From the NCBI GenBank assembly GCA_045568075.1, contig JBJLBP010000001.1, positions 102,307 through 166,306 of the forward strand: a stretch of DNA of 64,000 nt, in the 5' to 3' direction. The translations under genes were made by a program, and so were the position numbers. The first letter of the stretch is position 1. The number at the start of each line of letters is the position of its first letter. The DNA is from Candidatus Thalassarchaeaceae archaeon. GTDB lineage: Archaea; Thermoplasmatota; Poseidoniia; Poseidoniales; Thalassarchaeaceae. Under the pieces are notes generated by a model, which was not told where the DNA came from, searched no databases, and saw only the letters and a list, made by a program, of their open reading frames with translations. Below are positions 12,939-61,841 of the stretch, one piece after another.

Positions 12939-12985
12939 CTGCCTTGATGGCTATCGCAACACACCCCATTAGATTGGAGCACAAG

Positions 12986-13023
12986 CCGGGATTTGCACCC
13001 GGGTCCACGGATCTGCAATCCGT
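12986..13023 (+). terminator. two adjacent GC-rich hairpins downstream of the dehydratase gene
   Basis: CCGGG-ATTTGCA-CCCGG followed by ACGGAT-CTGCA-ATCCGT, read directly from the sequence; function as terminator is inference. Confidence 0.25.
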
Positions 13024-13189
13024 TGCATAGCTACTCTGCCACTCGTGCGACAGACGCCCGACCCCCGACCCCCTCTTGAAGAATCTTCTCAGTGATGATG
13101 AGTGTCAGCGCCGAACCTCCACTTGTGAATGGAAGGAAGAGGGAGATTTCCGGTAGTATGTTCAAAGAGTAGATTCTCTAGGGCGTATT

Positions 13190-14041
13190 GTGGAAAAAGA
13201 GTGGTGGAAAAAGGACGACCCTCAGTGGCATGAGGAAAATCAGCAGGACCCACCATCCGAAGCCGACCTAGCGGAGCAACAACGCATCGTACAGGAGCGT
13301 TATCGTAAAGAACACTCAACAGGCAATGAAGAAGACAATGAAACAAACAACATGTTTCCAAAATCTATTGTTATTGTTGGTGTTGTTGTATTGGTAATAG
13401 GCGTCATGCTCATCGGTTTTGCAGCTGCATCTGTAGGTGATCTGGGGTCTGATGAAGAATGGATATCCGTAGACTCAAAGATTGATGCAAAATACCCAGG
13501 ATACAACGAGATTCGGGTTGAAGATTGCTACACTGACGATTGGGGTGATGAATACTGCGAATATTGGTACGAATTGGAGTGCTGGGTTGATTTGGACGTA
13601 TCCTACATAGTGGAAAATACCACTTATCATGCTCAGTTCGACCAATATCATATCGAAAATTACGAAGACTACGATGGAGCCGAGGAGGATTGCTTAGAAT
13701 ATGGCCAGAATGGAACTATGATGGTGGGCACCAACTTTGAGATTTTTTACAACTCCAACGACCCAAGCGATGCACGCCTTGAACCTCCCATGAGCGGTGC
13801 TGCGATTTTGTTGATGTTTTGTGGAATTGGAGTTCTTTTTGGAATTCTAGCTTTGGTCGGCTTCCTTCGTGGGGATTGGGGAACGAGTGCTTCTAGTAGG
13901 GCAAGTACTGGAATTACGTTCAACATTGGTGGCCGTGGTTCTTTCATGGGAAGAGGAAGAAGACATCGGAAGGTAAGTCGTAAGTCACGAAGAGGTTCTA
14001 GAGGTCGGTCTGGTGGCGGCAGATCTGGCGGCGGTCGTTGA
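13190..14041 (+). CDS. hypothetical two-TM membrane protein (DUF3592-like topology) with RG/RS-rich tail
   Basis: GTG start (or ATG at 13352); TM1 SIVIVGVVVLVIGVMLIGF, Cys/Trp/Tyr-rich domain ending in FEIFYNSNDPSDARLE (resembles the DUF3592 motif), TM2 AAILLMFCGIGVLFGILALVGF, then RGRRHRKVSRKSRRGSRGRSGGGRSGGGR; local GC about 35-45%. Confidence 0.55.
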   Translation: MEKEWWKKDDPQWHEENQQDPPSEADLAEQQRIVQERYRKEHSTGNEEDNETNNMFPKSIVIVGVVVLVIGVMLIGFAAASVGDLGSDEEWISVDSKIDAKYPGYNEIRVEDCYTDDWGDEYCEYWYELECWVDLDVSYIVENTTYHAQFDQYHIENYEDYDGAEEDCLEYGQNGTMMVGTNFEIFYNSNDPSDARLEPPMSGAAILLMFCGIGVLFGILALVGFLRGDWGTSASSRASTGITFNIGGRGSFMGRGRRHRKVSRKSRRGSRGRSGGGRSGGGR

Positions 14042-14089
14042 TTTCCCAGCCCTGAAATAACCGCATTTCAAATGAGGTGAGCCTTCCGT

Positions 14090-14974
14090 GTGCTCATGAT
14101 GGAGCGCTTACAAGTTCAGTCTCGCTCCCCATTTGAGATTCATCACATACTGACTGGTTTGGAAAAAACACCTCAAACTACAATTGAGGCTGAACTATTC
14201 CTTCCGGAAGGCGATGGACCGTTTGGGTGTGTAATTGCCCATCATGGAAGCAAAGGTTGGGCAACTCATCATCAAGACCACATCGATGGTTGGATCAATG
14301 CTGGGCTGGCGGTTTGTAAGGTAAATTCATTCGCCGCAAGAGGGATTGATTCAACGGTTGACGACCAACTTTCGGTAACTCATGCAATGATGCTTGTTGA
14401 TACCTTTAGCACGCGTTCTGTATTGGCTCAAGACCCTAGGATCAACAAGATTGGAATCGCAGGTTGGAGCCTCGGTGGAACTGTTGCTCTGTACTCGGCA
14501 TGGTCTCCTATTATCGAGATTCTAGGGTCTGCATTCGATGCTCATTTGCCATTCTATCCAGCAGCTCATATTCGACCCGATATCCAAAATTGGTCGGACT
14601 CACCAATTTTGATTCTTCATGGAGATGCTGACAATTGGACTCCTGTGCATCTGGTTGAAGAACTACTTCCTCAACTTCCGAATGCTACCTTACATACATA
14701 TCCTGATGCACACCATTCTTTCGACAGTGAAAAAGAACTGACACTTCTTCCAAAGGCGGTTCGCTTAAGGAAGCGAACTGCTAGAATAGACAAGAATGGA
14801 TACATGTCTGGAGAATTATTACTTGGTATTCGATTGCCTCTGAACGAGCGCTGGCAGCGTAGATGGATTATCCGACTTTTGCGAAACAGAGGGGCCCATG
14901 TGGAAGGCAACCCCTCTGCTCGTGCTGATTCTCTAGATAGGGCTAGAGATTTCTTCGTAGAGCAACTTTCCTAG
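14090..14974 (+). CDS. alpha/beta hydrolase, dienelactone hydrolase-like
   Basis: Nucleophile elbow GWSLGG, LILHGDADNWTP and C-terminal HH as in DLH-family hydrolases. Confidence 0.6.
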   Translation: MLMMERLQVQSRSPFEIHHILTGLEKTPQTTIEAELFLPEGDGPFGCVIAHHGSKGWATHHQDHIDGWINAGLAVCKVNSFAARGIDSTVDDQLSVTHAMMLVDTFSTRSVLAQDPRINKIGIAGWSLGGTVALYSAWSPIIEILGSAFDAHLPFYPAAHIRPDIQNWSDSPILILHGDADNWTPVHLVEELLPQLPNATLHTYPDAHHSFDSEKELTLLPKAVRLRKRTARIDKNGYMSGELLLGIRLPLNERWQRRWIIRLLRNRGAHVEGNPSARADSLDRARDFFVEQLS

Positions 14975-18964: not shown

Positions 18965-19053
18965 TGAACCGCCGACCGGCGGGTGCTTTCTCAAGATACC
19001 GCAATAATTTCACTACATAACTTGTCAAAGAAACCAGTTTAATCCAAAAATAA

Positions 19054-19068
19054 TTTGTATATTACAAA
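19054..19068 (+). promoter_or_regulatory. perfect palindrome TTTGTATATTACAAA upstream of the HTH gene
   Basis: Read directly; lies about 40 nt upstream of the GTG/ATG of the 85-aa HTH ORF in an AT-rich stretch; short palindromes of this size are expected several times by chance in 64 kb. Confidence 0.25.
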
Positions 19069-19098
19069 ACATTATAGTAAGATACCTATTCCGCTAGG

Positions 19099-19356
19099 GT
19101 GAGCAACATGGCACTGGAAGCACCCCAACTTGCAAAATTGCTGAAGCTAAGAGCGGTTGGATGGTCTCAACAAGAGATTGCGGATGCGATTGGAACTTCG
19201 CAACAAGTCGTCGCTTACCAGCTGAAGAAATTGAAGGAAGAATCTCTGAAGAAAGATCCGGAAGAGGTGTTCAGTACTGCCATAATGGGCGGGATTGCAA
19301 TCGGTGCTGGATTAGGTGCTGCTGCAATGATGTTTGCTCAACTATTGAAGAAGTGA
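19099..19356 (+). CDS. small membrane-anchored helix-turn-helix protein
   Basis: HTH-like segment GWSQQEIADAIGTSQQVVAYQLKKL (sigma-70 region 4 / LuxR-like) followed by one hydrophobic helix AIMGGIAIGAGLGAAAMMFAQLL; GTG 19099 or ATG 19108. Confidence 0.5.
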   Translation: MSNMALEAPQLAKLLKLRAVGWSQQEIADAIGTSQQVVAYQLKKLKEESLKKDPEEVFSTAIMGGIAIGAGLGAAAMMFAQLLKK

Positions 19357-19357
19357 T
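19343..19357 (+). repeat. 15-nt direct repeat TATTGAAGAAGTGAT, copy 1 (3' end of HTH gene)
   Basis: Identical 15-mer recurs at 19695-19709; both copies end a reading frame with ...QLLKK-stop. Confidence 0.5.
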
Positions 19358-19372
19358 ATTTGGAGGAATAAA

Positions 19373-19684
19373 ATGACGAACACGTATGAAGAAATGAATC
19401 GAAGAATAGAGAATGGAGAGTTTGGCACACCGCCGGACCCGAATCTATTGCACCAAGCATGGGCCAACGAGCATGAGAGAGATATTGCGAATAGAGGGAG
19501 TAAGTCTGTTTACCATGGGGTTTGCTCTCTTTGGGAAGACAAAGGAAAGGTCCTGCTATCTGGGAGGACGCAGGAAGAAACCATAGTCCCGGCTGGTGTC
19601 AAAGTTCTGGTTTTAAGGAAGGATCCTGAGCCTGGAACGCGGCAACCTAACGCTAGTATTGTTTACGTTACTTACGAAGACTGA
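19373..19684 (+). CDS. hypothetical protein
   Basis: 103-aa ORF with ATG start and GGAGG-like sequence upstream; no known motif. Confidence 0.45.
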   Translation: MTNTYEEMNRRIENGEFGTPPDPNLLHQAWANEHERDIANRGSKSVYHGVCSLWEDKGKVLLSGRTQEETIVPAGVKVLVLRKDPEPGTRQPNASIVYVTYED

Positions 19685-19694
19685 GTTATTCAGT

Positions 19695-19709
19695 TATTGA
19701 AGAAGTGAT
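19695..19709 (+). repeat. 15-nt direct repeat TATTGAAGAAGTGAT, copy 2
   Basis: Located 10 nt after the TGA of the 103-aa ORF and in frame with it (YED-stop-VIQLLKK-stop). Confidence 0.5.
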
Positions 19710-19712
19710 TTT

Positions 19713-19793
19713 GTGGTCGATATCTACGTCCTGGAATGTGAGGGCGGTAAATTCTACGTCGGAGGAGATGATTCACTCGTTCAGCCAGGATAG
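19713..19793 (+). pseudogene. possible remnant of a GIY-YIG nuclease N-terminus
   Basis: 26 codons VVDIYVLECEGGKFYVGGDDSLVQPG then stop; IY-x9-YVG spacing fits the GIY-YIG signature but the frame closes immediately and no continuation exists in other frames. Confidence 0.15.
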
Positions 19794-20243
19794 CCAACGA
19801 GCAACCACATTCTGAACACCTGGAACTTCCATCTCAGATCTGCAACATCTCTCCCAAGCTAATTGTTCGCCCTTCGGAGTAATCGAGAATAATTCAGCCC
19901 GTAACAAAACTCCATCCGGAGAGTCGCATTTACTTCGATTATCGTCAATAAAACAATGTATCAAATTCTTGGGGAAATGGTGCATCTTACCTGACTCTGG
20001 GCAGCACAACATTACACTGCGCTCGAGGAAAAGTAGCGATGATCCTGAGGACTCGTCAACCTCGTGTCCTATGATGCGAGTATCCGAGAGCATGTTGGCA
20101 ACATCGACATTGTACCATTGGGTTTGATCGGGTGAGATGTTGAGTCTTGACACGTCATCAAGATATTGCTGAACCTTCAGTTGGGTGTATCCCTCATCCA
20201 CGCCCATCGAACACTTACAAAACGGCGACCCATTTGAATGCAA
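19773..20243 (-). CDS. hypothetical Cys/His-rich protein
   Basis: 156-aa ORF and the only long frame in this AT-rich stretch; no recognised motif; could be non-coding. Confidence 0.3.
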   Translation of the reverse strand: MHSNGSPFCKCSMGVDEGYTQLKVQQYLDDVSRLNISPDQTQWYNVDVANMLSDTRIIGHEVDESSGSSLLFLERSVMLCCPESGKMHHFPKNLIHCFIDDNRSKCDSPDGVLLRAELFSITPKGEQLAWERCCRSEMEVPGVQNVVARWLSWLNE

Positions 20244-20350
20244 CTTTACATTTTAATTATGAAATTATCCGAATTCCGGAAAAAAATCATAGTTCATTTT
20301 GTGACAATAAGCACCTAACATACAAATAGGGTTCCCAAATCGGAAGGCCC

Positions 20351-20773: not shown

Positions 20774-21631
20774 TTACGGCTTGCGCATCAAGTGCCTGTG
20801 ATAGGCCATTGAGCCACTAACAAATCCCTCATAGACGGGAGTTCCTTTGACTCCGGCAAATGTTTCAAAACTACGACGGACAGATTTTGGCACCTTTTCT
20901 TCGATTGCTTTCATCTTCGTCTCGTTGATTTCGTCAAGTGCTCTGATAACCTCTTGAACAACATCTGCTGATTCAACAATTTCGAATCCTCTCGATTCGA
21001 ATAAGGCTGGGAGTGAAGCCATGGTTTTGGCATCTCGGAGATCTGTCCAACAAAACATCCCACCAGGCTTGAGAACACGGTATGCTTGCTCTACGAATGC
21101 ACCCATGTCACCGTAGCAGTGTGACGATTCCACATTGTATACAACGTCGAAGGATTCGTTTTCAAAAGGTAAGTCCTGTGCATTACCTTCGATGAACTGA
21201 AGGTTGGTTTGAGCGGAATACCATCGCTTGCAATGGCCGACTGCTTCTGCTGAGAAATCAACTCCAGTAAGTTTGGCAGGAGTGTGTGTCTTCGCTATCC
21301 AACTGGCTCCACCTCCCCGCCCAGATCCTACTTCGAGGACTTGTTTTCCTTCGAGATCGACTCCTCGAATGTTCATCGAGTATAGTTGTATGAACATTCG
21401 ATTAGGCTCATCATCAGAATCTAACTCAGGCCCGTTATCATCTTCGAATCCATAATTCATGAATCGAAAATCGGATTCGTCGTTTGCCTTGGCTAATTTC
21501 TGATACCACCATTTCCACATTCGGTTCTGTAACCGGCCTGGTGCTAGGCGCAGCATGGTCACGAAAAATCGAGCGGGTAGCCCCATTTTCTTGGGAGATG
21601 CGACGTGCATGTGAGCACCTATTGCTTCCAT
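20774..21631 (-). CDS. class I SAM-dependent methyltransferase
   Basis: Motif I VLEVGSGRGGGASW, post-I acidic residue, LKPGGMF. Confidence 0.8.
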   Translation of the reverse strand: MEAIGAHMHVASPKKMGLPARFFVTMLRLAPGRLQNRMWKWWYQKLAKANDESDFRFMNYGFEDDNGPELDSDDEPNRMFIQLYSMNIRGVDLEGKQVLEVGSGRGGGASWIAKTHTPAKLTGVDFSAEAVGHCKRWYSAQTNLQFIEGNAQDLPFENESFDVVYNVESSHCYGDMGAFVEQAYRVLKPGGMFCWTDLRDAKTMASLPALFESRGFEIVESADVVQEVIRALDEINETKMKAIEEKVPKSVRRSFETFAGVKGTPVYEGFVSGSMAYHRHLMRKP

Positions 21632-29292: not shown

Positions 29293-30546
29293 TTGTTGGA
29301 CGCTAATGAGTTCATCAGAGAAGTCGAGGACTTCGATGAATTTGGCACTGAAACCGTGTTCGAAGATTACGAGTGGGAAGTAAATGAACGCTCAGGAGTA
29401 ACTCGCAAGGCCATTAACGAGTTCTGGACGAGCGCTCAAAGACAAGGCAATAGTCTGCATGAGATATCTTACCGAGCCTGTTTCAAACCACAACTCCCTG
29501 GCTTCTTCATCTCAAGACTCACGGAGGTTGGTGAGGGCGTTTACGACCCATTCATGGGAAGAGGAACTACGCTGCTCGAGGCGTTCTTGCAGGGAAGAAA
29601 GCCACTTGGCAACGACATAAATCCACTCAGTGCTGCACTACTTGAGCCAAGGATTAATCCACCCACATACGAAGATGTGGAGGCTCGGCTGAATCAAATC
29701 GATCTGGGGGTAGCAGAGGAGAGTTACCCCGAATTAGAGGTGTTTTTCCACCCTGATACGCTTAGACAAATTATTGCCCTGAAAGAATACTTTCTCAGAA
29801 GGGAATCGTCAGGTGAAATCGATAATGTCGACAAATGGATTCGCATGGTTGCAATAAACAGACTGACCGGTCATTCGCCTGGTTTCTTCTCTGTATATTC
29901 ACTACCTCCAAATCAAGCGGTGTCGATAAAGAGCCAAAGAAAAATCAACGAAAAGAGAGAGCAAACTCCTGAATCTAAAGAGATTAAACCGAGGATTCTC
30001 AAGCGAACGAAAGCATTGCTAAAAGATTGGAATGGGGCCCCACTGAATCACACTGGCCTCGATCTTTCACCATCATTGACAGTCGAGGATGCGGCCGGCG
30101 CTATGAGTATCCCGAGCTCGTCTGCAGGTCTGGTTGTGACCTCCCCGCCTTTCCTAGACGTTGTCGACTACCAAGGAGACAACTGGATGCGATGTTGGTT
30201 CTTGGGAATCGATGCTTCGACTGTTGAGATTACTGAGTTGAAGAAGCCTGAGGATTGGAAAGCAAAGATGACTGAAGTCATGCGTGATCTGAGTAGAATC
30301 CTGAAGCCCAGTGGTTACCTCGCCTTCGAGGTTGGAGAAGTCACTTACAAGAGAGAAAAGTTGCTTCTTGAAGAATTAGTTCTTGAGGCGGGAGTAGAGG
30401 CTGGATTAGAGCCAGTAATCATCATGATTAACGATCAGGAATTCACCAAGACTTCGAATGCGTGGGGCGTTGACAATCTATCGAAAGGAACCAATACCAA
30501 TCGTATTGTCATCTTTGAGAATGTTACAAATCATTTACCAAACTGA
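29293..30546 (+). CDS. DNA methyltransferase of the N4-cytosine/N6-adenine (pfam01555-like) type, permuted motif order; predicted N4-cytosine
   Basis: Motif I region PQLPGFFISRLTEVGEGVYDPFMGRGTTLLEAFLQGRKPLGNDINP near the N-terminus; motif IV LVVTSPPFLDVVDYQGDNW and RILKPSGYL near the C-terminus; SPPF (Ser) is more typical of m4C than m6A enzymes; local GC about 35-47%. Confidence 0.65.
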   Translation: MLDANEFIREVEDFDEFGTETVFEDYEWEVNERSGVTRKAINEFWTSAQRQGNSLHEISYRACFKPQLPGFFISRLTEVGEGVYDPFMGRGTTLLEAFLQGRKPLGNDINPLSAALLEPRINPPTYEDVEARLNQIDLGVAEESYPELEVFFHPDTLRQIIALKEYFLRRESSGEIDNVDKWIRMVAINRLTGHSPGFFSVYSLPPNQAVSIKSQRKINEKREQTPESKEIKPRILKRTKALLKDWNGAPLNHTGLDLSPSLTVEDAAGAMSIPSSSAGLVVTSPPFLDVVDYQGDNWMRCWFLGIDASTVEITELKKPEDWKAKMTEVMRDLSRILKPSGYLAFEVGEVTYKREKLLLEELVLEAGVEAGLEPVIIMINDQEFTKTSNAWGVDNLSKGTNTNRIVIFENVTNHLPN

Positions 30547-30997
30547 GGAATTTAGTTCTCGGAATCTTGCTGTTTTTGCCCAGATCACCGCTATGCCACC
30601 ATTGTTTCACTGTCTCATATCGAATGATCCAGTACGGCATTTCTGGGAAGCGTGTGATGTCGGTGACAAAGTATCCCTCAACATCATCGAGTTTGTCTAG
30701 GAATCCCAATTCATCGAACTTGCGCCCGGAACCTACCATGTATGAAGGACAAAAGTAGATGCCCCCCTTAGTGAGGCTTCTAACTTCCCAATTTCCGCCA
30801 TCTGCATCAATCAGGTCGAAGCCCGAGCCTTCGCTTGGGGCCAATTCTGAGCCGGGCATTGATTCGACTGCTCGGCGCTCAATTAGGAAGGAAACTCTAC
30901 GCCCATCAGTGAAGTACTTTCGAGTATCTTCTAGAGAAATATGCAACGACTCGGAAATTGCTTCCAGATCAAAAGTTAGCCAGCCGCTGGGTTGCAT
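30524..30997 (-). CDS. hypothetical 157-aa protein, candidate restriction endonuclease partner
   Basis: Convergent with and overlapping the methyltransferase 3' end by 23 nt; ATG at 30997; possible PD-(D/E)xK-like segment GFDLIDADGGNWEVRSLTK; assignment is inference. Confidence 0.4.
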   Translation of the reverse strand: MQPSGWLTFDLEAISESLHISLEDTRKYFTDGRRVSFLIERRAVESMPGSELAPSEGSGFDLIDADGGNWEVRSLTKGGIYFCPSYMVGSGRKFDELGFLDKLDDVEGYFVTDITRFPEMPYWIIRYETVKQWWHSGDLGKNSKIPRTKFLSLVNDL

Positions 30998-54526: not shown

Positions 54527-56041
54527 GTGGATACCGAAATAGTTCATCGCCGTCGCTGGATGATTCTCGGTGTCATGAGTCTTAGTCTTGTTATTGTGAT
54601 GCTCAATAATGTGACACTGAACGTCGCTCTTCCTGAACTCTCAAAGGATCTTCGAGCAGATAATACCGAGTTGCAGTGGATTCTAGATGCCTATGCATTA
54701 GTCTTCGGCGGATTGCTTCTTGTTATGGGTGCCCTTGGCGATCGATTCGGTCGCAAAGGCGCCCTGCAAATTGGGCTCTTGTTAGTTGCAACCGCTTCTG
54801 CCCTGACCGCGATGTATGCATCGACATCGGGCGAGGTAATTGTTGCCCGCGCGGTAATGGGAATTGGAGCAGCCCTCGTGATGCCGGCAACGCTCTCTGT
54901 GGTGGTGGTTGTATTCCCTCCTGAAGAAAGGGGCAAAGCGGTTGGAATATGGGCCGCTATGGCCGGAGTCGGCGCTCCACTTGGTCTACTTGTAGGAGGG
55001 TGGGCTGTGGAGAATTACGATTGGCAAATGGTCTTCTGGATTAATGTTCCAATTATCGCTTTAGCACTACTTCTCGGGCTATTTCTCGTGCCCAAATCTA
55101 AGGATAATCAAGAGCGCCCTCTCGATCCTATTGGGGCCTTCCTTTCCATAGGCGCATTGGGTTCAATTCTCTACGCCATAATCGAGGCCCCGAGTCATGG
55201 ATGGACGTCGCCAGAAACGATTGGAGTGGCGGGCCTCGGCTTGCTGTTTACTCTAGCATTCATCCAATGGGAGAGGCGTGTTGAGCATCCAATGCTGCCA
55301 ATCGAATTCTTCTCCTCACCTGGCTTTACCATGGGATTGATTGCAATCATGTTAGCATTCTTCGTTATGTTTTCTTTCATGTTCACGCAAATGCTTCATT
55401 TCCAATTGGTACGAGGACACACAGCCCTAGATGCGGCTTTGAGATTCCTTCCTCTACCGCTGGGGTTGATGCCTGCGGCAGCTAACTCAGATCGTCTGGT
55501 TGCGCGATTCGGAAGTAATCGAATTGTCAGTACTGGTCTAACTTTGGTCGCCATTGGAATGGTCCTCTTCACCACTGTAACTATTGATACGGAATATCTT
55601 CAAATCGCTGTCACCTTCTTCCTTCTAGGGCTTGGTATGGGACTAACTATGGCGCCTTCTACTACTCTTGTAATGGATTCAATCCCTGAAGACAAGGCAG
55701 GGGTAGGGAGTGCCACAAACGATGCAAGTAGAGAAATCGGCGGCGCGCTTGGAATTGCGATTGGCGGTTCTGTGCTCAACGAATATTACCAACGTAGCCT
55801 AGTGGTTCCTGAGGAACTAGAACATCTTGATTCCGTTCTTCGTGAATCATTCCCCGCAGCGATGAGGATTGGAGGGGATATGCTGTCAGAAGGTAATGAG
55901 GTAGGCGCCCAGTTAATTGAATCCGCAAGACTTGCATTTGTAGACGGAATGATTGCATCCGCTTGGGTAGGGGCGGTAATTGCCCTTACCAATGCGTTGC
56001 TAGTCTGGAAATTTATGCCTTCGCGTGCAATCTATGATTAA
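54527..56041 (+). CDS. MFS transporter, DHA2 (drug:H+ antiporter, 14-TM) family
   Basis: About 14 predicted TM helices, motif GALGDRFGRKG after TM2. Confidence 0.85.
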   Translation: MDTEIVHRRRWMILGVMSLSLVIVMLNNVTLNVALPELSKDLRADNTELQWILDAYALVFGGLLLVMGALGDRFGRKGALQIGLLLVATASALTAMYASTSGEVIVARAVMGIGAALVMPATLSVVVVVFPPEERGKAVGIWAAMAGVGAPLGLLVGGWAVENYDWQMVFWINVPIIALALLLGLFLVPKSKDNQERPLDPIGAFLSIGALGSILYAIIEAPSHGWTSPETIGVAGLGLLFTLAFIQWERRVEHPMLPIEFFSSPGFTMGLIAIMLAFFVMFSFMFTQMLHFQLVRGHTALDAALRFLPLPLGLMPAAANSDRLVARFGSNRIVSTGLTLVAIGMVLFTTVTIDTEYLQIAVTFFLLGLGMGLTMAPSTTLVMDSIPEDKAGVGSATNDASREIGGALGIAIGGSVLNEYYQRSLVVPEELEHLDSVLRESFPAAMRIGGDMLSEGNEVGAQLIESARLAFVDGMIASAWVGAVIALTNALLVWKFMPSRAIYD

Positions 56042-56047
56042 GAAAAT

Positions 56048-56482
56048 TCACTCTCGGTTGAGGACCATATGGAGTAAGAGTCCAACCGGCATCAGCATGA
56101 CCCCGAAGAAGACAATCCCTCGTGTTTGATTAATTCCGATTTCATTCTCAATCGCCTTGCGCCACATCCACCTAGTGGCAATTATGTCGCCTGCGACCAT
56201 ATGGGTCCATGCAAGAACCGTTCCCGACTCCGTTCCCAGAAGATTGACCATAGTATCCATCATGTCAGCAGGATTTCCAGAAAATAATTCTATCATGCCG
56301 CTTGGATCAACAATTATTGTGGCAAAATATGCAACTAAGGGTCCGATGAAAAGAGTATTTCCTTCCACCCATTTCGAAGTTCTTTCAGATGTGGGTTCAA
56401 TCATCATAAGCAACCAAAAAGGCCCAACCCAAATAGTTGGAATCAGAAACAGTACCGCATAAATCAATTCCATATCAATCAC
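56048..56482 (-). CDS. DUF4281 / ABA4-like membrane protein
   Basis: 4 TM helices and AWTHMVAGDIIATRWMW segment resembling the ABA4-like family. Confidence 0.5.
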   Translation of the reverse strand: MIDMELIYAVLFLIPTIWVGPFWLLMMIEPTSERTSKWVEGNTLFIGPLVAYFATIIVDPSGMIELFSGNPADMMDTMVNLLGTESGTVLAWTHMVAGDIIATRWMWRKAIENEIGINQTRGIVFFGVMLMPVGLLLHMVLNRE

Positions 56483-57074
56483 TCAACGCTGCTGCAACTT
56501 CTCCGGCTTCTTCCAATTGTTCAATTGAAAACCAGTAAGAGGAGGCCTGCCATACGATATCCCCGTTTTTGTCAAGCAAAATTACAGAGGGAGTTGGTAA
56601 ATTCCCAAAAGCTTCTACAACTGAAAGTTCCGAAGGCTCTCTAGTATCGAAATCAAGCGCTAGGCGCGAATGCCCATCAATAACCACCGGCCATGGCGAA
56701 TAGTGATCGCTTGAGTTGTTTCCATAAACTTGCATTATGTTTTCTGATGATTCGAAGTTACCGTATCTGTGAATTGTAATTGGTTGAATCGTGCTATAGT
56801 TGAGATTACTTTCTCGGATTCCTTCTGCCCATTCGTGGCAACCTTGACATTGCGAACTAACCCAGAACAAAAGTACCGGATTTTCTCCTAATTCGGTAGT
56901 CAGGTCTAACATCGGACCTCCATCAACATCTCTTCCCAGTGTTGGGAGTGTGAAGGTGTATCTTTTGTCTTCAATTTCCTCTTCTCCAAGCTCTTCTTGG
57001 ATTTCTTCAGCCAAACATCCTGCTGTAGCAGATAGTAGGAATAATGCAGTCAAAAGCCCAATTATTTTCTTCAT
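56475..57074 (-). CDS. thioredoxin-fold lipoprotein (TlpA/redoxin-like)
   Basis: Signal peptide MKKIIGLLTALFLLSATAGC (lipobox); SSQCQGCHEW CxxC motif; probable ATG at 57074 inside ORF 56475-57146. Confidence 0.6.
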   Translation of the reverse strand: MKKIIGLLTALFLLSATAGCLAEEIQEELGEEEIEDKRYTFTLPTLGRDVDGGPMLDLTTELGENPVLLFWVSSQCQGCHEWAEGIRESNLNYSTIQPITIHRYGNFESSENIMQVYGNNSSDHYSPWPVVIDGHSRLALDFDTREPSELSVVEAFGNLPTPSVILLDKNGDIVWQASSYWFSIEQLEEAGEVAAALSD

Positions 57075-57088
57075 TTTTCTCTCTCCAA

Positions 57089-57820
57089 TTATGGCTTGAT
57101 AGTACCTAATCCGCCATTGACTCCGATGATTTGCCCCGTCATCCATTCAGGGGCACCATTTACCAACCAACTAGCAACATCAGCAATTTCCTTTGCTTCA
57201 CCAATTCTTCCGACCGGATGCATCAAGTCACTAATTTTCCGACTTGCATCATTCTTCAGAAGGTGTTCCGACATCGGTGTATCAGTCATTGCAGGGGCGA
57301 TCGCATTGACCCTAATCCCCCGCTTTGCATAGTCTGCAGCAGAGGCGCGAGTCAATCCTTCAACAGCCGCTTTTGCTGCGGCAATAGCGGCGTGATTAGT
57401 CATACCATGAGTGGCCGCTACGGAAGAAAACAGAACAATCCTACCTCCTTCACCCCTCATCATCGGAACCGCGGCCGATCGAATCGCATTGAAAGCAGTG
57501 GTGAAGTTTTGGTCAATCGTATCTTGTACCTGTTCTGTGGATGTTGCATGTAGAGGTCTCAGAAGGATTGAGCCAACAGCGACGACGACGGCATCAAGGC
57601 GTCCATGACGTTGGAGGATTTCTCCAACCGCTTCCTTCATTGCATCTGCATCTCTGGCATCCACTGGTAGTATTTCGAGGCCACTAATTTCGTTACTAAG
57701 TGATTCTAGCGTTTCTTCAGTTCTACCACTCGCTACAATATTCCAGCCTTCTTCGGAGAGATTCTGACAAACATTACTCCCCACTCCTCCGGCGGCCCCC
57801 AATACCCATACAACAGACAA
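57089..57820 (-). CDS. short-chain dehydrogenase/reductase (SDR)
   Basis: N-terminal VLGAAGGVGS cofactor motif and classical SDR length. Confidence 0.8.
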   Translation of the reverse strand: MSVVWVLGAAGGVGSNVCQNLSEEGWNIVASGRTEETLESLSNEISGLEILPVDARDADAMKEAVGEILQRHGRLDAVVVAVGSILLRPLHATSTEQVQDTIDQNFTTAFNAIRSAAVPMMRGEGGRIVLFSSVAATHGMTNHAAIAAAKAAVEGLTRASAADYAKRGIRVNAIAPAMTDTPMSEHLLKNDASRKISDLMHPVGRIGEAKEIADVASWLVNGAPEWMTGQIIGVNGGLGTIKP

Positions 57821-57839
57821 TTCATGACCTCCTTAGGAT

Positions 57840-59432
57840 CTATCTCATTGCCTTAGGTCTACGGAGATCAGGGAACCAAGTATCTACACCATTCCAATCA
57901 ACAGGAATCCCTAGATCGGAAATTACCAGCTTACTGCTAATCCTAGCACTCTCAAAGATTGTTGGAAGACCACTTCCTGGATGAGTCCCCCCTCCAACTA
58001 AGTAGAGACCATTCAATTCCTCGAAGCGATTGTGGGGGCGCCTCCAAAGCATTTGGTCTAGTCCGTGGGCTAAATTGAAAACTGCTCCTCGATATATGTC
58101 GGAAGCACCCCAATCATCAGGAGTAACGATTGTCTTACTAACCATGTGATCTCGAAGATTTGTGTATCCTAAATGCGCCATCTGATCGATGATTAACTCA
58201 GAAAACTCTTCCTTTTCATTCTCCCAGACAATACTTGGATCTGTGTTGGGAACTGGAACTAGAACATACAGTGTGGATTGTCCCTTTGGAGCCATGCTTG
58301 GGTCGGTGATGCAAGCGTTCTGTACGTAAATAGAGGGATCATTCCAAGGAATTTTGTGATTGTCGATATTCACCAAACTATTCTCATAATCTGCAGAGGC
58401 ATAGATTTGATGATGGGGTTCATCGTATAGTTTGTCAACTCCAAGATAAAGCATGAAAGTCGAGCAAGAATACGATTTCTTCTGCAACTTTTCATCGGAC
58501 CACTTCTTTCTCTTCTGGTTTGGAATCATGGTAGTCATGGCATGACCAAAGTCTGCATTCATGATGATCTTTTCAGCCATATAATCCACATTCTTTGTTC
58601 GCAAACCTTTGACAGTCTTGCCTTCGATGATGACTTCATCGACCTCGGTCTCTAATTCGAACAGAACTCCCATCTCTCTGGCAATTTCCCCCATCCTAGC
58701 AGTAATTGAGCCGAGGCCACCTTTAGCATGGAAAATCCCGTGCTCGTACTCCAAGAATGCTAGAATAGTGAATAACGATGGTGCATGAAAAGGACTCATT
58801 CCGAGATATTTAGTTTGGAAAGACATTGCCAATCTAACTCGCTCATCGTCGAATAATCGTTCGAGATCAGATGCAACGCTGGCCCAGGGTCTCAGCACGG
58901 TAGCTGCGGAAAAGGCACGCTTGGAAAGAAGGTCGGATGGCCCCCTCCAAGGTGTTTGCAGACAACCCCTTGAACGGGCCAACTTTCTTCGATTCTCAGT
59001 GATGTAACGCTTGAATCCCTCGGCGTCTTTGTCGCCAGATAATTCCCTTACCCTTTCTGTCATCGCCTCTAAATTACAGGTGGCATCAATGGAGCCACCC
59101 CTTCCAAAGACAAGCCGATATGAGGGGTCTAGAGGTATCAGGCCAAGCTCCTCATGAGCGTCTCTTCCAATCGCTTGGAAAATTTCCTCTATAACTTCTG
59201 GATAATGGAAAAAGGTAGGGCCCCTATCGAACTTGAATCCATCATGTTCGACGATTCTTGTCCTCCCTCCTATGAAAGGGGTCTTTTCGATTACTCGGAC
59301 CTTCAAACCACTGTGGGCTAGGAGAAGGGCGGAAGCCAGGCCACCGGGTCCTGCTCCAACAATCAAAATGTCTTGCTCTTTGTTAATCGAGTTCTCAGAC
59401 TCAAGAGAAAGGGAGGGGGATTGCATGCTCAT
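57840..59432 (-). CDS. crtI: phytoene desaturase family (CrtI-like carotenoid desaturase)
   Basis: N-terminal FAD motif ILIVGAGPGGLASALLLAHSGLKVRVIEK...IGGR and C-terminal LYLVGGGTHPGSGLP. Confidence 0.8.
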   Translation of the reverse strand: MSMQSPSLSLESENSINKEQDILIVGAGPGGLASALLLAHSGLKVRVIEKTPFIGGRTRIVEHDGFKFDRGPTFFHYPEVIEEIFQAIGRDAHEELGLIPLDPSYRLVFGRGGSIDATCNLEAMTERVRELSGDKDAEGFKRYITENRRKLARSRGCLQTPWRGPSDLLSKRAFSAATVLRPWASVASDLERLFDDERVRLAMSFQTKYLGMSPFHAPSLFTILAFLEYEHGIFHAKGGLGSITARMGEIAREMGVLFELETEVDEVIIEGKTVKGLRTKNVDYMAEKIIMNADFGHAMTTMIPNQKRKKWSDEKLQKKSYSCSTFMLYLGVDKLYDEPHHQIYASADYENSLVNIDNHKIPWNDPSIYVQNACITDPSMAPKGQSTLYVLVPVPNTDPSIVWENEKEEFSELIIDQMAHLGYTNLRDHMVSKTIVTPDDWGASDIYRGAVFNLAHGLDQMLWRRPHNRFEELNGLYLVGGGTHPGSGLPTIFESARISSKLVISDLGIPVDWNGVDTWFPDLRRPKAMR

Positions 59433-60445
59433 TCCTCAAGAGGGGGTCTGATTACACCAAGAGTTGACATCAGCACGTTTGCCTTTTGGAAGGCCGTTAA
59501 ACTAAGTTGTTGCGAGACAACATCGCCACACAATATCTCTGCTTGTCTTACTAATTGGGAATAGACTGATACCATGATAGTAGGGCTCTTTCTGGAGTCT
59601 GTGTGGATCATTGGAAGTAGTTTAACAGCCTCTTCTCTGTGTGCCTTACATCTCTCGATGTAGTCTTGCATGAATTCTTGCCAATTAGGATTCGAGGCGA
59701 GGCTCGGGCTGGATAAATCGTAGGAACTAATACCATACGATTGCAACTCAGTAATAGGAAGGTAAATCCTTCCGGAAGCAAGATCGGATTGAATGTCACG
59801 AAGAATATTCACCATTTGCAAGAAAATTCCCATTTCTTCTGCGTAATGTTCAGCCTCTTGACCATCGTATCCATACAGATGGAGGAGGCATAGTCCGACT
59901 GAAGAAGCGACATTGTAGCAATAGCCACTGAGATCTTCATAGGTCTGGTAATTTGTTGGATATAGGTCATCTTCCATTCCATCGATTAGGGAATGCAGAT
60001 GCTGAGATGGAATGTTGAATTTCTCAATAGTGTGCCAGAATGCTAAGAAAAATTTCTCTTTTGGAAATGAGCAATTTGTCAACGGCTGAATGTTATCTCT
60101 GAGATATATCAGGGCACAAAGTCGGGCTATATGGGTCTCATGATCTAAAGTCCCACGAGACTCATGTTTGTCATCCAAATACTTGGATTTCTGTAGAGCT
60201 CTCAAACGTAGCGAACCCATTTGTTGAGGGGAGAAATTAGAGAAATCGGGCAACCAGTCGCCATCTGCAACATCATCTGCTCTGCGACAAAATGCATACA
60301 GCGCCTTTATCCCATCATGCTTTTCTTTTGGGAGGGTTCTGAATGCCCTCAGGAACGAGGAAGAAGACTCAGTTGCAATCCTCTCACATTCGAGGTATGA
60401 CTCACTTAATGTCGCAGCATCATTGCTTACGACATCCCCCAACAT
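59429..60445 (-). CDS. crtB: phytoene synthase (squalene/phytoene synthase family)
   Basis: Asp-rich motifs YAFCRRADDVAD and ...QMVNILRDIQSDLASGRIYLP; stop overlaps crtI start by 4 nt. Confidence 0.8.
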   Translation of the reverse strand: MLGDVVSNDAATLSESYLECERIATESSSSFLRAFRTLPKEKHDGIKALYAFCRRADDVADGDWLPDFSNFSPQQMGSLRLRALQKSKYLDDKHESRGTLDHETHIARLCALIYLRDNIQPLTNCSFPKEKFFLAFWHTIEKFNIPSQHLHSLIDGMEDDLYPTNYQTYEDLSGYCYNVASSVGLCLLHLYGYDGQEAEHYAEEMGIFLQMVNILRDIQSDLASGRIYLPITELQSYGISSYDLSSPSLASNPNWQEFMQDYIERCKAHREEAVKLLPMIHTDSRKSPTIMVSVYSQLVRQAEILCGDVVSQQLSLTAFQKANVLMSTLGVIRPPLEE

Positions 60446-60514
60446 GCATCGACATCGACCATGCTCCGTATATAATGAAATGTTTTCAAAAATTATTCTT
60501 AATTCAATAAATAA

Positions 60515-61759
60515 TCAGTTTTTATAGGGCGGATAAGGTTCTGGAATAGATAGACAGGTACGAAACTCCTCAAGATATGGACTCATTGAAAGAATTAATT
60601 TGACATCAGGGTGAGTGCGGATAACTAAACCATCGAGATACATCAGTGCACGTATGATTGGAAAGGCCTCTTCGCCGAATACTGCGCCTGCCTCCTCCAC
60701 AGCGCATCTAACCGTTTTCATCATTATTTGAGTAAGACTTTGTTCCCCGATAGAGCGCATCTCAAAGTCATGGTAAATCTGGTGCATCTTACTCATGTAC
60801 CTCTCCTTACGCAACTCGTCTAGGTCCTCCTCTGAAAGTCCAAGGAGTGACTGGAATGCATCATCATAATCACTGTTGGATAAATGTTCGAAGAATCTGA
60901 AAAGAGAGCTGCTGACATGTTTGGGAGCATGACAAATCGCTCCATTATCGATGAAGACAAACATTCCATCGTCATCGATGATACAATTCCCCGGATGTAA
61001 ATCTCCATGGAATGTTCCAATGCCGAATAGGTAGGCACCATGAATCCGGAAAAGATCTAGTAAAGTCGACCAGGACAATGAGCCAGCATCAATTCCATCC
61101 TCAAGAGAATCTCCTCTGATGAATTCGGAAACTAGTACATGATGATTTGACAATTCGCGATAGTACTTTGGGAATCTGAGTCTGTGCATTTGGAATGTGT
61201 CATCGATTTCCAATTGAATTTTCTTTAATTCATCAGCACCTGAAATCTCATTTCGCAGATCAAGCTCTCTTGTTGTGTAGTCCGCAACGTGATTCAGTAG
61301 AGCGACTGGATTACCGACCTTGCGTAACTTAGGCATGAAGATTAAGAAAATTCGCAACCATCTTCGCATTCGCCTAACATCTCGGCGGAAAGCCTTCTCA
61401 TTCTGGGCCTTGATGACCTTGATTACAACATCGTCGCCGGTCTTCAGACGAGCTCGGTGAACTTGCCCAACAGAAGCAGCCGCGATCGGAATTTTGTCTA
61501 TTTCCTCAAAGGCATCGAAGAACCCCTCGGGTGCTCTCGTCTCGAGATTTTCAAATACCGACTCAGAAGGAATGCTGGATGCGTGCTGATACAATTGCTG
61601 TAATTGTCGGCACTTCTCGACGGGAATTATATCACTCCTCAATGCAAATATTTGGGCCAACTTAACGGCGAGTAATCCTTGGGATTGAATCCAATCTAAA
61701 TCGGCTGGACCGGCCTTGAGAATCTGACGTATGAACTTGGCAAATGTCCAGACTCGCAT
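60515..61759 (-). CDS. ABC1/UbiB-family atypical kinase
   Basis: AAASVGQVHRARL...VVIKV and HGDLHPGNCII motifs. Confidence 0.8.
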   Translation of the reverse strand: MRVWTFAKFIRQILKAGPADLDWIQSQGLLAVKLAQIFALRSDIIPVEKCRQLQQLYQHASSIPSESVFENLETRAPEGFFDAFEEIDKIPIAAASVGQVHRARLKTGDDVVIKVIKAQNEKAFRRDVRRMRRWLRIFLIFMPKLRKVGNPVALLNHVADYTTRELDLRNEISGADELKKIQLEIDDTFQMHRLRFPKYYRELSNHHVLVSEFIRGDSLEDGIDAGSLSWSTLLDLFRIHGAYLFGIGTFHGDLHPGNCIIDDDGMFVFIDNGAICHAPKHVSSSLFRFFEHLSNSDYDDAFQSLLGLSEEDLDELRKERYMSKMHQIYHDFEMRSIGEQSLTQIMMKTVRCAVEEAGAVFGEEAFPIIRALMYLDGLVIRTHPDVKLILSMSPYLEEFRTCLSIPEPYPPYKN

Positions 61760-61841
61760 ATCGAGTGAGTAATCCTTTCACAATATCAAGTGCTGTTTCA
61801 GATTTGTAACAAATCAGTATTAGAATCGAAAATTCAATGAA

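What the first reader, a model, noticed from the sequence alone, without database searches (positions are those of the whole stretch)
18995..20350. AT-rich islet between eno and lrp: membrane-anchored HTH protein, palindrome, duplicated gene-end and nuclease-like remnant
About 1.35 kb of clearly lower GC carries three small ORFs unrelated to the flanking housekeeping genes: an 85-aa protein combining an HTH-like segment (GWSQQEIADAIGTSQQVVAYQLKKL) with a C-terminal TM helix, a 103-aa ORF, and a 156-aa Cys/His-rich ORF on the opposite strand. A perfect 15-nt palindrome TTTGTATATTACAAA lies about 40 nt upstream of the HTH gene (possible autoregulatory operator). A short frame with GIY-YIG-like spacing (DIYVLECEGGKFYVGG) closes after 26 codons. 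The pattern looks like the decayed remains of a small integrated element, or a minimal regulatory/toxin module.
Basis: partly seen in the sequence, partly recalled or inferred. Interest (0 to 1): 0.55.

Follow-up and report, generated by a model that had tools for sequence, protein, structure and literature searches.

The report
Archaeal regulator heading a swappable nuclease slot
In a marine Group II archaeon, the space between the enolase gene and a conserved neighbour holds a small membrane-anchored DNA-binding regulator with its own palindromic binding site. Behind it sits a gene slot that in other strains carries different nucleases and defence systems, so the regulator marks a previously undescribed variable, probably defensive, module in uncultured ocean archaea.

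Summary

1. **orfC (19773-20207, minus strand)** is not foreign. It is a conserved Poseidoniales gene that normally sits directly upstream of eno. It has a PH-like fold, invariant Cys/His residues and dN/dS 0.04.

2. **orfA plus orfB (19108-19684)** form an intact two-gene operon under purifying selection. It is inserted between orfC and eno and is absent from all 46 related species representatives examined.
   - orfA is an 82-aa HTH protein with a C-terminal hydrophobic tail anchor.
   - In about 110 marine archaeal loci covering 33 genomic contexts, its homologues carry a 7-1-7 palindrome abutting a TATA-like box.
   - The palindrome half-site co-varies with the recognition helix (TTTGTAT/SQQV, TTTGCAT/SRQV, TTGGCAT/SRQA), which points to autoregulation.
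   - The gene immediately downstream varies (23 clusters). orfB is the commonest. Most of the others are nucleases or defence systems: GIY-YIG, HNH, NYN, PIN, PLD, NurA, MvaI/BcnI restriction-modification, MksE-containing operons.
   - Strains with an identical orfA protein carry different cargo.

3. **19685-19772** is a scar. It consists of a second copy of the orfA 3' end plus the first 18 codons of a GIY-YIG nuclease gene that is intact in other strains.

Best reading: a defence-type cargo slot under a membrane-tethered autoregulator, functionally analogous to BrxR, RptR and C proteins. orfB's function is unknown.

The parts
18995..19107 (.). AT-rich (GC 0.29) divergent intergenic region between eno and orfA. 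It carries the orfA promoter elements.
   Evidence: Homology to the empty-site genome L001 ends just after the eno start. The last ~65 nt are conserved upstream of orfA homologues even at unrelated genomic sites.
19054..19068 (.). Palindromic operator candidate TTTGTAT-A-TTACAAA (7-1-7 with one inner mismatch). It lies 39 nt before the orfA ATG.
   Evidence: Unique in the window, expected 0.02. The same position holds a perfect 7-1-7 palindrome in 65 of 101 related loci and a one-mismatch version in 24, against 29 of 2220 control windows. Symmetric half-site changes co-vary with the recognition helix.
19072..19079 (+). TATA-box-like element TTATAGTA, 3 nt after the palindrome and about 29-36 nt before the ATG. 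This implies a leaderless or very short-leader mRNA.
   Evidence: Conserved as TTATAGT / TTATATA in non-identical upstream segments anchored on the palindrome. Its promoter function is inferred from general knowledge of archaeal promoters and was not tested.
19108..19356 (+). orfA: an 82-aa protein with an N-terminal HTH (residues ~10-45), a charged linker, and a C-terminal Gly/Ala-rich hydrophobic tail (residues 58-80) ending in KK. Predicted to be a tail-anchored, autoregulatory DNA-binding protein.
   Evidence: Pfam HTH_24 and others. 40 homologues at 54-99% identity, and 592 representatives at E<=1e-3. Alignment A5. Kyte-Doolittle 1.82 and dN/dS 0.12-0.21. Named members occur only in Poseidoniales.
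19338..19360 (+). Direct repeat copy 1: the true 3' end of orfA (..QLLKK stop) plus 4 nt.
   Evidence: repeat D3. Homology among all alleles of the locus ends at this stop codon.
19373..19684 (+). orfB: a 103-aa protein of unknown fold and function. It starts 16 nt after orfA with a GGAGG ribosome-binding site. It is the commonest downstream partner of orfA-family genes.
   Evidence: 19 homologues, no Pfam, PHROG or PADLOC hit. It follows an orfA homologue in every context recovered and in 21 of 103 surveyed loci. It is fused to an HRDC domain in L145. dN/dS 0.02-0.09. The AF2 model has pLDDT 71 and no fold match.
19685..19772 (+). Scar of an earlier cargo. It holds a second, degenerate copy of the orfA 3' end (19690-19712) followed by the first 18 codons of a GIY-YIG nuclease gene (19713-19766), truncated against the orfC stop.
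   Evidence: There is a decay series: the window keeps all of it, L120 keeps only the orfA-end copy, and L118, L121 and L124 have lost it.
19773..20207 (-). orfC: a 144-aa conserved Poseidoniales protein with a PH-like beta-sandwich and invariant H48, C68, H77, H84, C85 and C122. It is the resident core neighbour of eno and not part of the insertion.

Best explanation
**What the locus is.** It is this strain's allele of a strain-variable cargo slot in marine Group II archaea (Poseidoniales, Thalassarchaeaceae-like).

**The insertion.** A two-gene operon, orfA-orfB, has been inserted between the core genes orfC and eno.

**Proposed mechanism (inferred).**
- orfA encodes a minimal transcription factor: an HTH domain tethered to the membrane by a C-terminal tail-anchor helix.
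- Glycine-zipper-like motifs in that helix probably also provide the dimer contact.
- As a dimer it binds the 15-bp palindrome abutting the TATA box of its own promoter.
- That binding sets the expression of itself and of whatever gene lies immediately downstream. That gene starts -4 to +16 nt after the orfA stop in most loci, with no room for a second promoter.

**The downstream position.** It is a swappable slot. In other strains and loci it holds nucleases or defence systems. Here it holds orfB, a small protein of unknown activity that is the family's most frequent partner and is once fused to a nucleic-acid-binding HRDC domain.

**The scar.** The 80-nt stretch after orfB shows that a GIY-YIG nuclease gene once followed an orfA gene here. 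The present orfA-orfB unit recombined in through the orfA 3' end, and the old cargo was then deleted.

**Shown by computation:**
- gene integrity and purifying selection;
- presence/absence and cargo polymorphism with breakpoints at the orfA stop and the orfC stop;
- operator conservation and covariation with the recognition helix;
- the nature of the cargo.

**Inferred:**
- DNA binding, and whether it represses or activates;
- co-transcription;
- membrane insertion;
- an anti-virus or anti-plasmid role;
- the recombination route.
For: 1. **Insertion.** None of 46 Poseidoniales eno loci has orfA or orfB, while 27 have orfC abutting eno. The alignment with L001 shows that about 770 bp is inserted.
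3. **Breakpoints.** They lie exactly at the orfA stop codon and the orfC stop codon.
4. **Survey.** In 111 loci the architecture is constant and there are 23 cargo clusters. These include orfB (21 loci), NYN (11), PIN7 (9), HNH (7+6), GIY-YIG (6+4), PLD (3+2), an REase (2) and NurA (1), plus an MksE-containing operon beside a tyrosine recombinase and a NACHT NTPase as a neighbour.
5. **Operator.** The palindrome is conserved in 89 of 101 loci. Its half-site co-varies with the recognition helix: TTTGTAT with SQQV, TTTGCAT with SRQV, TTGGCAT with SRQA/T.
6. **Dispersal.** The module sits in 33 different upstream contexts, so the regulator travels with its promoter and slot.
7. **Selection.** dN/dS is 0.02-0.21.
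8. **Scar.**. An independent 48-nt duplicate of the orfA 3' end lies distal to the restriction-modification cargo in L082.
Against: - No experiment or transcript data supports any step.
- orfB has no detectable similarity to any nuclease, toxin or defence protein. Its model is of low confidence (pTM 0.35), so a defence role for this allele rests on guilt by association.
- Several cargo clusters are small membrane proteins or unknowns rather than nucleases.
- The membrane anchor is predicted only from hydropathy. The tail could instead be a soluble dimerisation helix.
- Whether the regulator represses or activates is unknown.
- The loci surveyed are not de-replicated (for example, L097 and L127 are the same contig) and come from pattern-based scans, so the counts are indicative only.
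- The mechanism that swaps cargo is not identified. There is no recombinase near the eno site.
Confidence: 0.6

Rival explanations
1. orfA-orfB is a type II toxin-antitoxin (addiction) module. orfA would be the DNA-binding antitoxin that represses the operon and neutralises the orfB toxin, and the module spreads as a selfish pair.
For: - It is a two-gene operon of small genes, with the autoregulatory HTH gene first.
- The orfA-orfB pairing recurs in at least 5 genomic contexts.
- The distribution is patchy and mobile-like, with 33 contexts.
- Many alternative partners are nucleases of kinds that are used as toxins, such as PIN and NYN.
Against: - The same orfA protein, at 100% identity, is paired with unrelated partners and even stands alone in L092. 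That is incompatible with specific protein-protein neutralisation.
- Partners include 1000-aa helicase-nucleases, restriction-modification systems and multi-gene operons.
- orfB matches no toxin family.
- A tail anchor is not a feature of known antitoxins (own knowledge).
Confidence: 0.12
2. The orfA gene is only a landing site. Free-standing homing endonucleases (GIY-YIG, HNH) and other selfish genes target the orfA 3' end and insert there, so the cargo is functionally unrelated to orfA.
For: - GIY-YIG and HNH proteins with zinc-finger tails occupy the slot in many loci.
- Insertion is precise, 4-7 nt after the stop.
- Presence/absence polymorphism occurs between identical flanks, including an empty site in L092.
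- Partial duplicates of the orfA 3' end lie at the far side of the cargo in the window, L120 and L082, as expected from break-repair or site-directed insertion.
Against: - Most cargo types are not homing-endonuclease families: NYN, PIN7, NurA, PLD-helicase, orfB, an MksE operon and membrane proteins.
- The tight operon spacing and the conserved, co-evolving operator argue that expression of the slot is controlled by orfA.
- The regulator, promoter and slot move together to 33 contexts.
Confidence: 0.15
3. One reading: the whole 1.35 kb is the decayed, non-functional remnant of one small integrated element.
For: - GC is low.
- There is a truncated GIY-YIG frame and a duplicated gene end.
- orfB and orfC have no annotated function.
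Against: - All three ORFs are intact, widely conserved and under purifying selection.
- orfC is a syntenic core gene.
- Only 88 nt is demonstrably degenerate.
- No integrase, att-type outer repeats or viral relatives were found.
Confidence: 0.03
4. orfA is a housekeeping regulator of the divergently transcribed enolase gene, or of orfC-eno. The palindrome would be a glycolysis-related operator.
For: The palindrome lies in the shared eno-orfA intergenic region. The insertion separates eno from orfC, so eno needs a new promoter here.
Against: - The same regulator and operator are found in 33 contexts, most without eno.
- They are absent from the eno locus of 46 related species.
- The operator keeps a fixed distance to the orfA start, not to eno.
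Confidence: 0.03

Closest known systems
Regulators encoded at the head of diverse bacterial defence systems: BrxR (PMC9122601), CapW (PMC11662680) and RptR (PMC12255303)
   Same: - It is a small or dimeric HTH regulator encoded first.
- It has an inverted-repeat or palindromic site in its own promoter.
- The same regulator family is associated with many unrelated defence systems and islands.
   Different: - There is no WYL or other ligand domain.
- It is only 82 aa, with a C-terminal hydrophobic tail anchor.
- It is archaeal, so control would act at a BRE/TATA-type promoter.
- It has no sequence relationship to these families.
- Repression has not been demonstrated.
Controller (C) proteins of restriction-modification systems
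   Same: - It is an ~80-aa HTH protein.
- Its gene is immediately upstream of, or overlapping, a nuclease gene.
- It has a palindromic box upstream of its own gene.
- It is expected to time or limit expression of a dangerous nuclease.
   Different: - Only 2 of 103 surveyed partners are REases with a methylase. Most nucleases here are solitary, and the window's partner is not a recognisable nuclease.
- It has a membrane tail.
- The match to Xre-type HTH_3 is below the Pfam threshold.
Defence or flexible-genome hotspots between core genes, such as E. coli defence hotspots (PMC10121019) and P2/P4 prophage hotspots (10.1101/2021.01.21.427644)
   Same: The flanks are conserved (eno and orfA on one side, orfC and lrp on the other), and the content between them is strain-specific, mostly defence genes, and includes an empty allele.
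   Different: - The slot is tiny, often one gene.
- It is expressed from the anchor gene's promoter.
- The anchor plus slot is itself dispersed to many genomic sites.
Free-standing homing endonucleases of T4-like phages (Seg: GIY-YIG; Mob: HNH). This comparison rests on own knowledge.
   Same: GIY-YIG and HNH genes are inserted between conserved genes, are polymorphic among close relatives, and leave truncated remnants.
   Different: Endonuclease activity and target are untested, and many other cargo types share the slot.
Membrane-tethered one-component regulators (ToxR, CadC, TcpP). This comparison rests on own knowledge.
   Same: The topology is predicted to be an N-terminal cytoplasmic DNA-binding domain followed by a single membrane helix.
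   Different: - There is no extracytoplasmic sensor domain, only 2-6 residues after the helix.
- The DNA-binding domain is not an OmpR-type winged helix.
- It is about one third of their size.

Membership tests
BrxR/CapW (wHTH-WYL-WCX) defence regulators | N-terminal winged HTH DNA-binding domain | tested here: met
   Pfam HTH_24 scores 22.0 bits against a cut-off of 21.9, and several other HTH models fall at E~1e-4.
BrxR/CapW (wHTH-WYL-WCX) defence regulators | WYL ligand-sensing domain and C-terminal dimerisation domain | tested here: not met
   The protein is 82 aa and has no WYL hit. After the HTH come only a linker and a hydrophobic tail. It is therefore not a member, only a functional analogue.
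BrxR/CapW (wHTH-WYL-WCX) defence regulators | Encoded upstream of diverse defence systems | tested here: met
   There are 23 downstream gene clusters. Most of those that could be annotated are nucleases, restriction-modification systems or MksE operons.
R-M controller (C) proteins | Small Xre-type HTH protein with a palindromic C-box upstream of its own gene | tested here: inconclusive
   Size and palindrome fit. HTH_3 gives E=0.001 at 19.5 bits, below the 23-bit cut-off.
R-M controller (C) proteins | Part of a restriction-modification system (REase plus methyltransferase) | tested here: not met
   There is no REase or methyltransferase in the window's slot. Only L082 and L128 of 103 loci have an MvaI/BcnI REase.
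Type II toxin-antitoxin module | Bicistronic operon with an autoregulating DNA-binding antitoxin | tested here: inconclusive
   The operon layout and operator are present. Neutralisation is not testable here.
Type II toxin-antitoxin module | Cognate, co-evolving toxin partner of a known toxin family | tested here: not met
   An identical orfA protein occurs with unrelated partners and alone. orfB has no toxin-family hit.
GIY-YIG nuclease (for the 19713-19793 frame) | GIY-YIG catalytic domain (~80 aa, with GIY, YIG, Arg and Glu motifs) | tested here: not met
   Only the first 18 codons (the GIY..YVG part) survive in the window. The intact homologue in L086 scores 40.8 bits against a cut-off of 22.6. 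The window copy is a remnant, not a gene.
Integron-like cassette platform | Adjacent tyrosine-recombinase integrase, with attI/attC recombination sites flanking the cassettes | tested here: not met
   There is no integrase among the genes flanking the window locus or in the eno-site loci. Only L161 has a tyrosine recombinase next door. The repeated orfA 3' end is seen in 3 loci only.
Flexible genomic hotspot between core genes | Conserved flanks with strain-specific content, including empty alleles | tested here: met
ToxR/CadC-type membrane-bound regulators | Cytoplasmic DNA-binding domain, a single transmembrane helix, and an extracytoplasmic sensor domain | tested here: not met
   Hydropathy supports one C-terminal helix, but only 2-6 residues follow it. 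Membrane insertion itself is not testable with these tools.

The most novel reading that the evidence does not exclude
Two non-exclusive readings remain open.

1. The tail-anchored HTH protein and the last ~20-50 nt of its gene form a dedicated capture-and-expression platform. It would consist of a regulated promoter plus a landing site into which promoterless defence genes are recombined, making it an integron-like logic without an integron integrase.
2. The membrane tether makes the regulator an envelope-coupled infection sensor that releases nuclease expression when a virus perturbs the membrane.

Under either reading, orfB would be a new archaeal immune effector.
Probability: 0.15. Interest if true: 0.8.

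Novelty: new variant of a known kind. Interest (0 to 1): 0.6.

Why it matters
Marine Group II archaea are among the most abundant uncultured plankton, and almost nothing is known about how they resist viruses and plasmids.

- **A marker for discovery.** This ~82-aa regulator with its co-evolving operator is easily recognised. It flags a swappable gene slot in about a hundred loci, which gives a guilt-by-association handle for finding new archaeal defence genes, such as orfB and the 421-aa MksE-linked protein.
- **A testable specificity code.** The pairing of Q/R at helix position 32 with T/C at half-site position 5 makes a clean protein-DNA prediction.
- **An unusual design.** It is a minimal membrane-tethered transcription factor.
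- **Annotation and assembly.** Current pipelines label the gene only as 'winged helix-turn-helix regulator'. Assemblies often break right after it, which would fit high strain-level variation at that point.

Tried and rejected
**orfB and orfC annotation**
- Pfam, PHROGs and PADLOC gave nothing for orfB or orfC.
- A PDB profile search for orfB gave nothing.
- The afdb50 library was unavailable.

**Viral origin**
- An IMG/VR scan found no orfB relative and only generic HTH matches for orfA.

**Classical integrated element**
- No integrase lies among the neighbours.
- The tRNA genes in the window are far away, at 12975 and 40931.
- The insertion has no direct repeats at its outer borders.

**Duplicated gene end as a target-site duplication**
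- The two copies differ at synonymous codon positions (CAA CTA versus CAG TTA).
- The second copy is contiguous with a GIY-YIG gene start, exactly as in the L086 allele.
- It is therefore better read as the leftover of a second orfA allele than as a fresh duplication.
- A systematic search found further copies only in L082 and L120, and short matches of this kind are not rare by chance: 11 control hits in 2.5 Mb.

**Low GC as proof of foreign origin**
- Rejected, because the core gene orfC is just as low.

**Literature**
- Searches found no description of this module.
Full report
**Observation**

The stretch 18995-20350 has GC 0.441 against 0.520 for the whole window, which puts it in the lowest 3% of windows of that length. 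Its contents are:
- orfA (85 aa from GTG 19099, or 82 aa from ATG 19108);
- orfB (19373-19684);
- orfC on the opposite strand (156 aa from TTG, or 144 aa from ATG 20207).

orfA matches many HTH models. HTH_24 just reaches its Pfam threshold. It ends in a hydrophobic Gly/Ala-rich segment with mean hydropathy 1.82 over residues 58-76.

The 'perfect 15-nt palindrome' is TTTGTAT-A-TTACAAA at 19054-19068. It has one mismatch at the innermost arm position, is unique in the window, and has a chance expectation of 0.02. The duplicated gene end is a 23-nt direct repeat, 19338-19360 and 19690-19712, 87% identical. The description is therefore essentially right, with small corrections.

**Who the neighbours are**

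Enolase-based retrieval places the window in the Poseidoniales (marine Group II archaea). The closest record, L001, has 90% enolase identity. tblastn of the local genes against 46 Poseidoniales eno loci gave a clear split.
- orfC is present in 27 of them at 41-86% identity. In almost all of these it lies directly upstream of eno on the same strand, between lrp and eno.
- orfA and orfB are found in none.

Aligning the window to L001 shows that about 770 bp (roughly 19002-19772) replaces a short orfC-eno spacer.

**The regulator recurs at the same site with different cargo**

orfA has 40 close homologues, annotated at most as 'winged helix-turn-helix regulator' of Thalassarchaeaceae. I looked up contigs that encode exactly the proteins P0011 or P0007. 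Both show eno, then the divergent regulator, then a variable segment, then convergent orfC and lrp. With an identical regulator protein, the segment holds one of the following:
- a 1037-aa PLD-plus-helicase protein;
- a 519-aa HNH protein;
- two kinds of GIY-YIG zinc-finger proteins;
- an orfB-like gene;
- a small multi-pass membrane protein;
- nothing at all (L092).

Homology between alleles stops exactly at the regulator's stop codon and resumes at the orfC stop. Contigs from the window's own species (94-96% nt identity) carry either two tandem orfB paralogues (L118) or a 196-aa HNH gene (L119) in the slot. Many contigs end right after the regulator, which would fit a population-variable site.

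**The scar**

After the second copy of the orfA 3' end, the window reads VVDIYVLECEGGKFYVGG. In L086-L088 and L094, a gene starting 5 nt after the regulator's stop begins LVDVYVLECEGGRIYVGK, which is 67-77% identical. That gene is a bona fide GIY-YIG domain (E=2.8e-10, above the Pfam threshold) followed by a CCHC knuckle.

So 19690-19766 is homologous to the junction 'regulator end plus GIY-YIG start' of another allele.

Related contigs form a decay series. The window retains both pieces, L120 retains only the regulator-end copy, and L118, L121 and L124 have lost everything except 5 nt. The two copies in the window differ at synonymous positions, which suggests that they descend from two alleles and are not a fresh target duplication.

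An independent case exists in L082. There, 48 nt of the regulator's 3' end (96% identical) reappear 2.9 kb downstream, beyond the restriction-modification cargo.

**Family-wide survey**

I combined these loci with 80 from a metagenome scan, giving 111 loci. They are not de-replicated. The findings are below.
- **Protein architecture.** All regulators are 80-90 aa with the same layout: HTH, charged linker, hydrophobic Gly/Ala tail and a charged end.
- **Operator.** Of 101 loci with at least 70 nt of upstream sequence, 65 have a perfect 7-1-7 palindrome and 24 have a one-mismatch version, located 27-40 nt before the ATG. Only 29 of 2220 control windows reach this.
- **TATA box.** A TATA-like box (TTATAGT or TTATATA) follows the palindrome directly. 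This places the palindrome where archaeal BRE elements lie.
- **Covariation.** The half-site changes symmetrically and together with the recognition helix: TTTGTAT with SQQV (71 loci), TTTGCAT with SRQV, and TTGGCAT with SRQA or SRQT. This is the pattern expected of a dimeric protein recognising its own operator.
- **Downstream gene.** It starts -4 to +16 nt after the stop in most loci and falls into 23 sequence clusters.
  - orfB family: 21 loci, once fused to an HRDC domain.
  - NYN RNase: 11 loci.
  - PIN7: 9 loci.
  - A 421-aa protein that heads an operon containing MksE, next to a tyrosine recombinase: 8 loci.
  - Two HNH families: 7 and 6 loci.
  - GIY-YIG: 6 and 4 loci.
  - NgoFVII-type PLD: 3 loci.
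  - PLD-helicase: 2 loci.
  - MvaI/BcnI: 2 loci.
  - NurA: 1 loci.
  - Several membrane proteins and unknowns.
- **Genomic context.** Upstream flanks fall into 33 unrelated contexts among 68 loci. The eno context alone has at least 7 cargo types.
- **orfB linkage.** orfB homologues were preceded by a regulator in every context recovered.
- **Selection.** dN/dS is 0.12-0.21 for orfA and 0.02-0.09 for orfB.
- **Taxonomy.** The named family members are all from Poseidoniales. A profile search finds 592 representative proteins at E<=1e-3, and many divergent ones keep the HTH-plus-tail design.

**Mechanism proposed**

The regulator most likely binds the palindrome as a dimer and controls a bicistronic or polycistronic transcript that includes whatever occupies the slot. 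Because the palindrome abuts the TATA box, repression by occluding TFB/TBP binding is the simplest expectation from archaeal precedents. Activation is not excluded.

The 50-residue HTH has no soluble dimerisation domain. The glycine-zipper-like tail could supply dimerisation within the membrane. The tether could also couple regulation to the state of the envelope, but that is speculation.

Most of the cargo that could be annotated consists of nucleases or recognised defence systems. This points to a defence, or at least a conflict-related, role. orfB's own activity is unknown, and the HRDC fusion hints at nucleic-acid substrates.

Cargo turnover appears to use the regulator gene as the homologous anchor. 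The distal join sometimes falls inside the resident regulator's 3' end, which would explain the duplicates. This is an inference, and no recombinase is present at the eno site.

**Rivals**
- **Toxin-antitoxin.** The layout fits, but identical regulators occur with unrelated partners and alone, which does not.
- **Landing site for homing endonucleases.** This explains the GIY-YIG and HNH genes, the precise insertion and the duplicates. It does not explain the breadth of the cargo or the co-evolving operator.
- **Decayed junk.** Contradicted by the selection and synteny data.
- **Enolase regulator.** Contradicted by the 33 contexts.

**Comparison with known systems**

Functionally, the closest analogues are bacterial regulators that head diverse defence systems: BrxR (PMC9122601), CapW (PMC11662680) and RptR (PMC12255303). 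The C proteins of restriction-modification systems are also close.

Membership fails for each of them. There is no WYL domain, usually no restriction-modification pair, and no sequence relationship. The locus as a whole is a small flexible hotspot of the kind described for bacterial defence islands (PMC10121019). It differs in that the anchor gene, its promoter and the slot are themselves dispersed.

I found no paper describing this module in Poseidoniales.

**Verdict**

The finding is a new variant of a known kind, and it is of moderate to good interest as an entry point into defence and genome plasticity of uncultured marine archaea.

Limits:
- everything rests on sequence comparison;
- the counts are not de-replicated;
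- orfB remains functionally blank.

Noticed in passing
window 19773-20207 (-): orfC is an unannotated protein conserved across Poseidoniales. It has a confident PH-like fold and invariant H48, C68, H77, H84, C85 and C122, and it normally lies directly upstream of eno on the same strand, with only a short spacer between them. Its function is unknown, and it may bind a metal.
   Followed up: partly
window 20774-21631 (-): The SAM-dependent methyltransferase gene between lrp and the redoxin gene has low GC (0.47). It is missing from the closest relative L001 and from L002, L004-L007 and L013, so it is a second presence/absence polymorphism next to the islet.
   Followed up: partly
window 29293-30997: This is another low-GC patch (0.46-0.47). 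It carries a 417-aa N6/N4 DNA methylase and a convergent 157-aa ORF with no Pfam hit, and may be a restriction-modification islet.
   Followed up: partly
window 13089-14974, beside tRNA-Cys at 12975-13048: This low-GC stretch (0.47), directly next to a tRNA gene, holds a 283-aa ORF with no Pfam hit and a dienelactone-hydrolase-like protein. I did not check whether it is an insertion.
   Followed up: no
window 56001-64000: The last 8 kb of the window has uniformly low GC (0.43-0.48). It was not examined.
   Followed up: no
L098 7812-7893 and 1-7800: In this long-read contig, a fragment of the orfC 3' end (about 27 codons, 63-71% identical) sits just upstream of the regulator's promoter. A full orfC lies downstream, so the regulator module is flanked by orfC-end copies. 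Upstream of that, at least 8 kb of GC 0.36-0.39 DNA has few long ORFs and no eno.
   Followed up: partly
L161 3706-9777: The regulator heads an operon of a 421-aa protein, an MksE (condensin/Wadjet-type) protein and an 896-aa protein, with the genes overlapping by 4 nt. A tyrosine recombinase is encoded divergently next to it.
   Followed up: partly
L173 419-5469: A 1303-aa NACHT/STAND NTPase gene lies immediately upstream of a regulator-PIN7 pair.
   Followed up: no
L145 (downstream gene, 217 aa): The orfB domain is fused to an N-terminal HRDC domain (E=2.7e-18). This is the only functional hint for orfB.
   Followed up: partly
window 19041-19047; L081 about 20 nt upstream of the main palindrome: A half-site-like ATCCAAA (consensus ATACAAA) lies 6 nt upstream of the palindrome. 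In L081 and others, a second degenerate palindrome (TATGTATTATTCAAA) sits about 20-21 nt centre-to-centre from the main one, and some loci (L139, L191) show two sites. Operators may therefore be tandem.
   Followed up: no
L102 upstream of 235: One allele of the regulator-NYN locus has lost the palindrome. Homology to its sister contigs L101 and L103 begins between the palindrome and the TATA-like box.
   Followed up: no
P0139 and similar proteins: The profile search also hits long proteins made of 5-12 tandem copies of a similar HTH unit, for example a 740-aa protein with 12 repeats. Their origin and function are unknown.
   Followed up: no
L085, L083 and L082 (110 aa); L098 (122 aa); L105 921-1253: A conserved multi-pass membrane protein of 110-122 aa often occupies the end of the slot next to orfC. 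It is absent from the window.
   Followed up: partly
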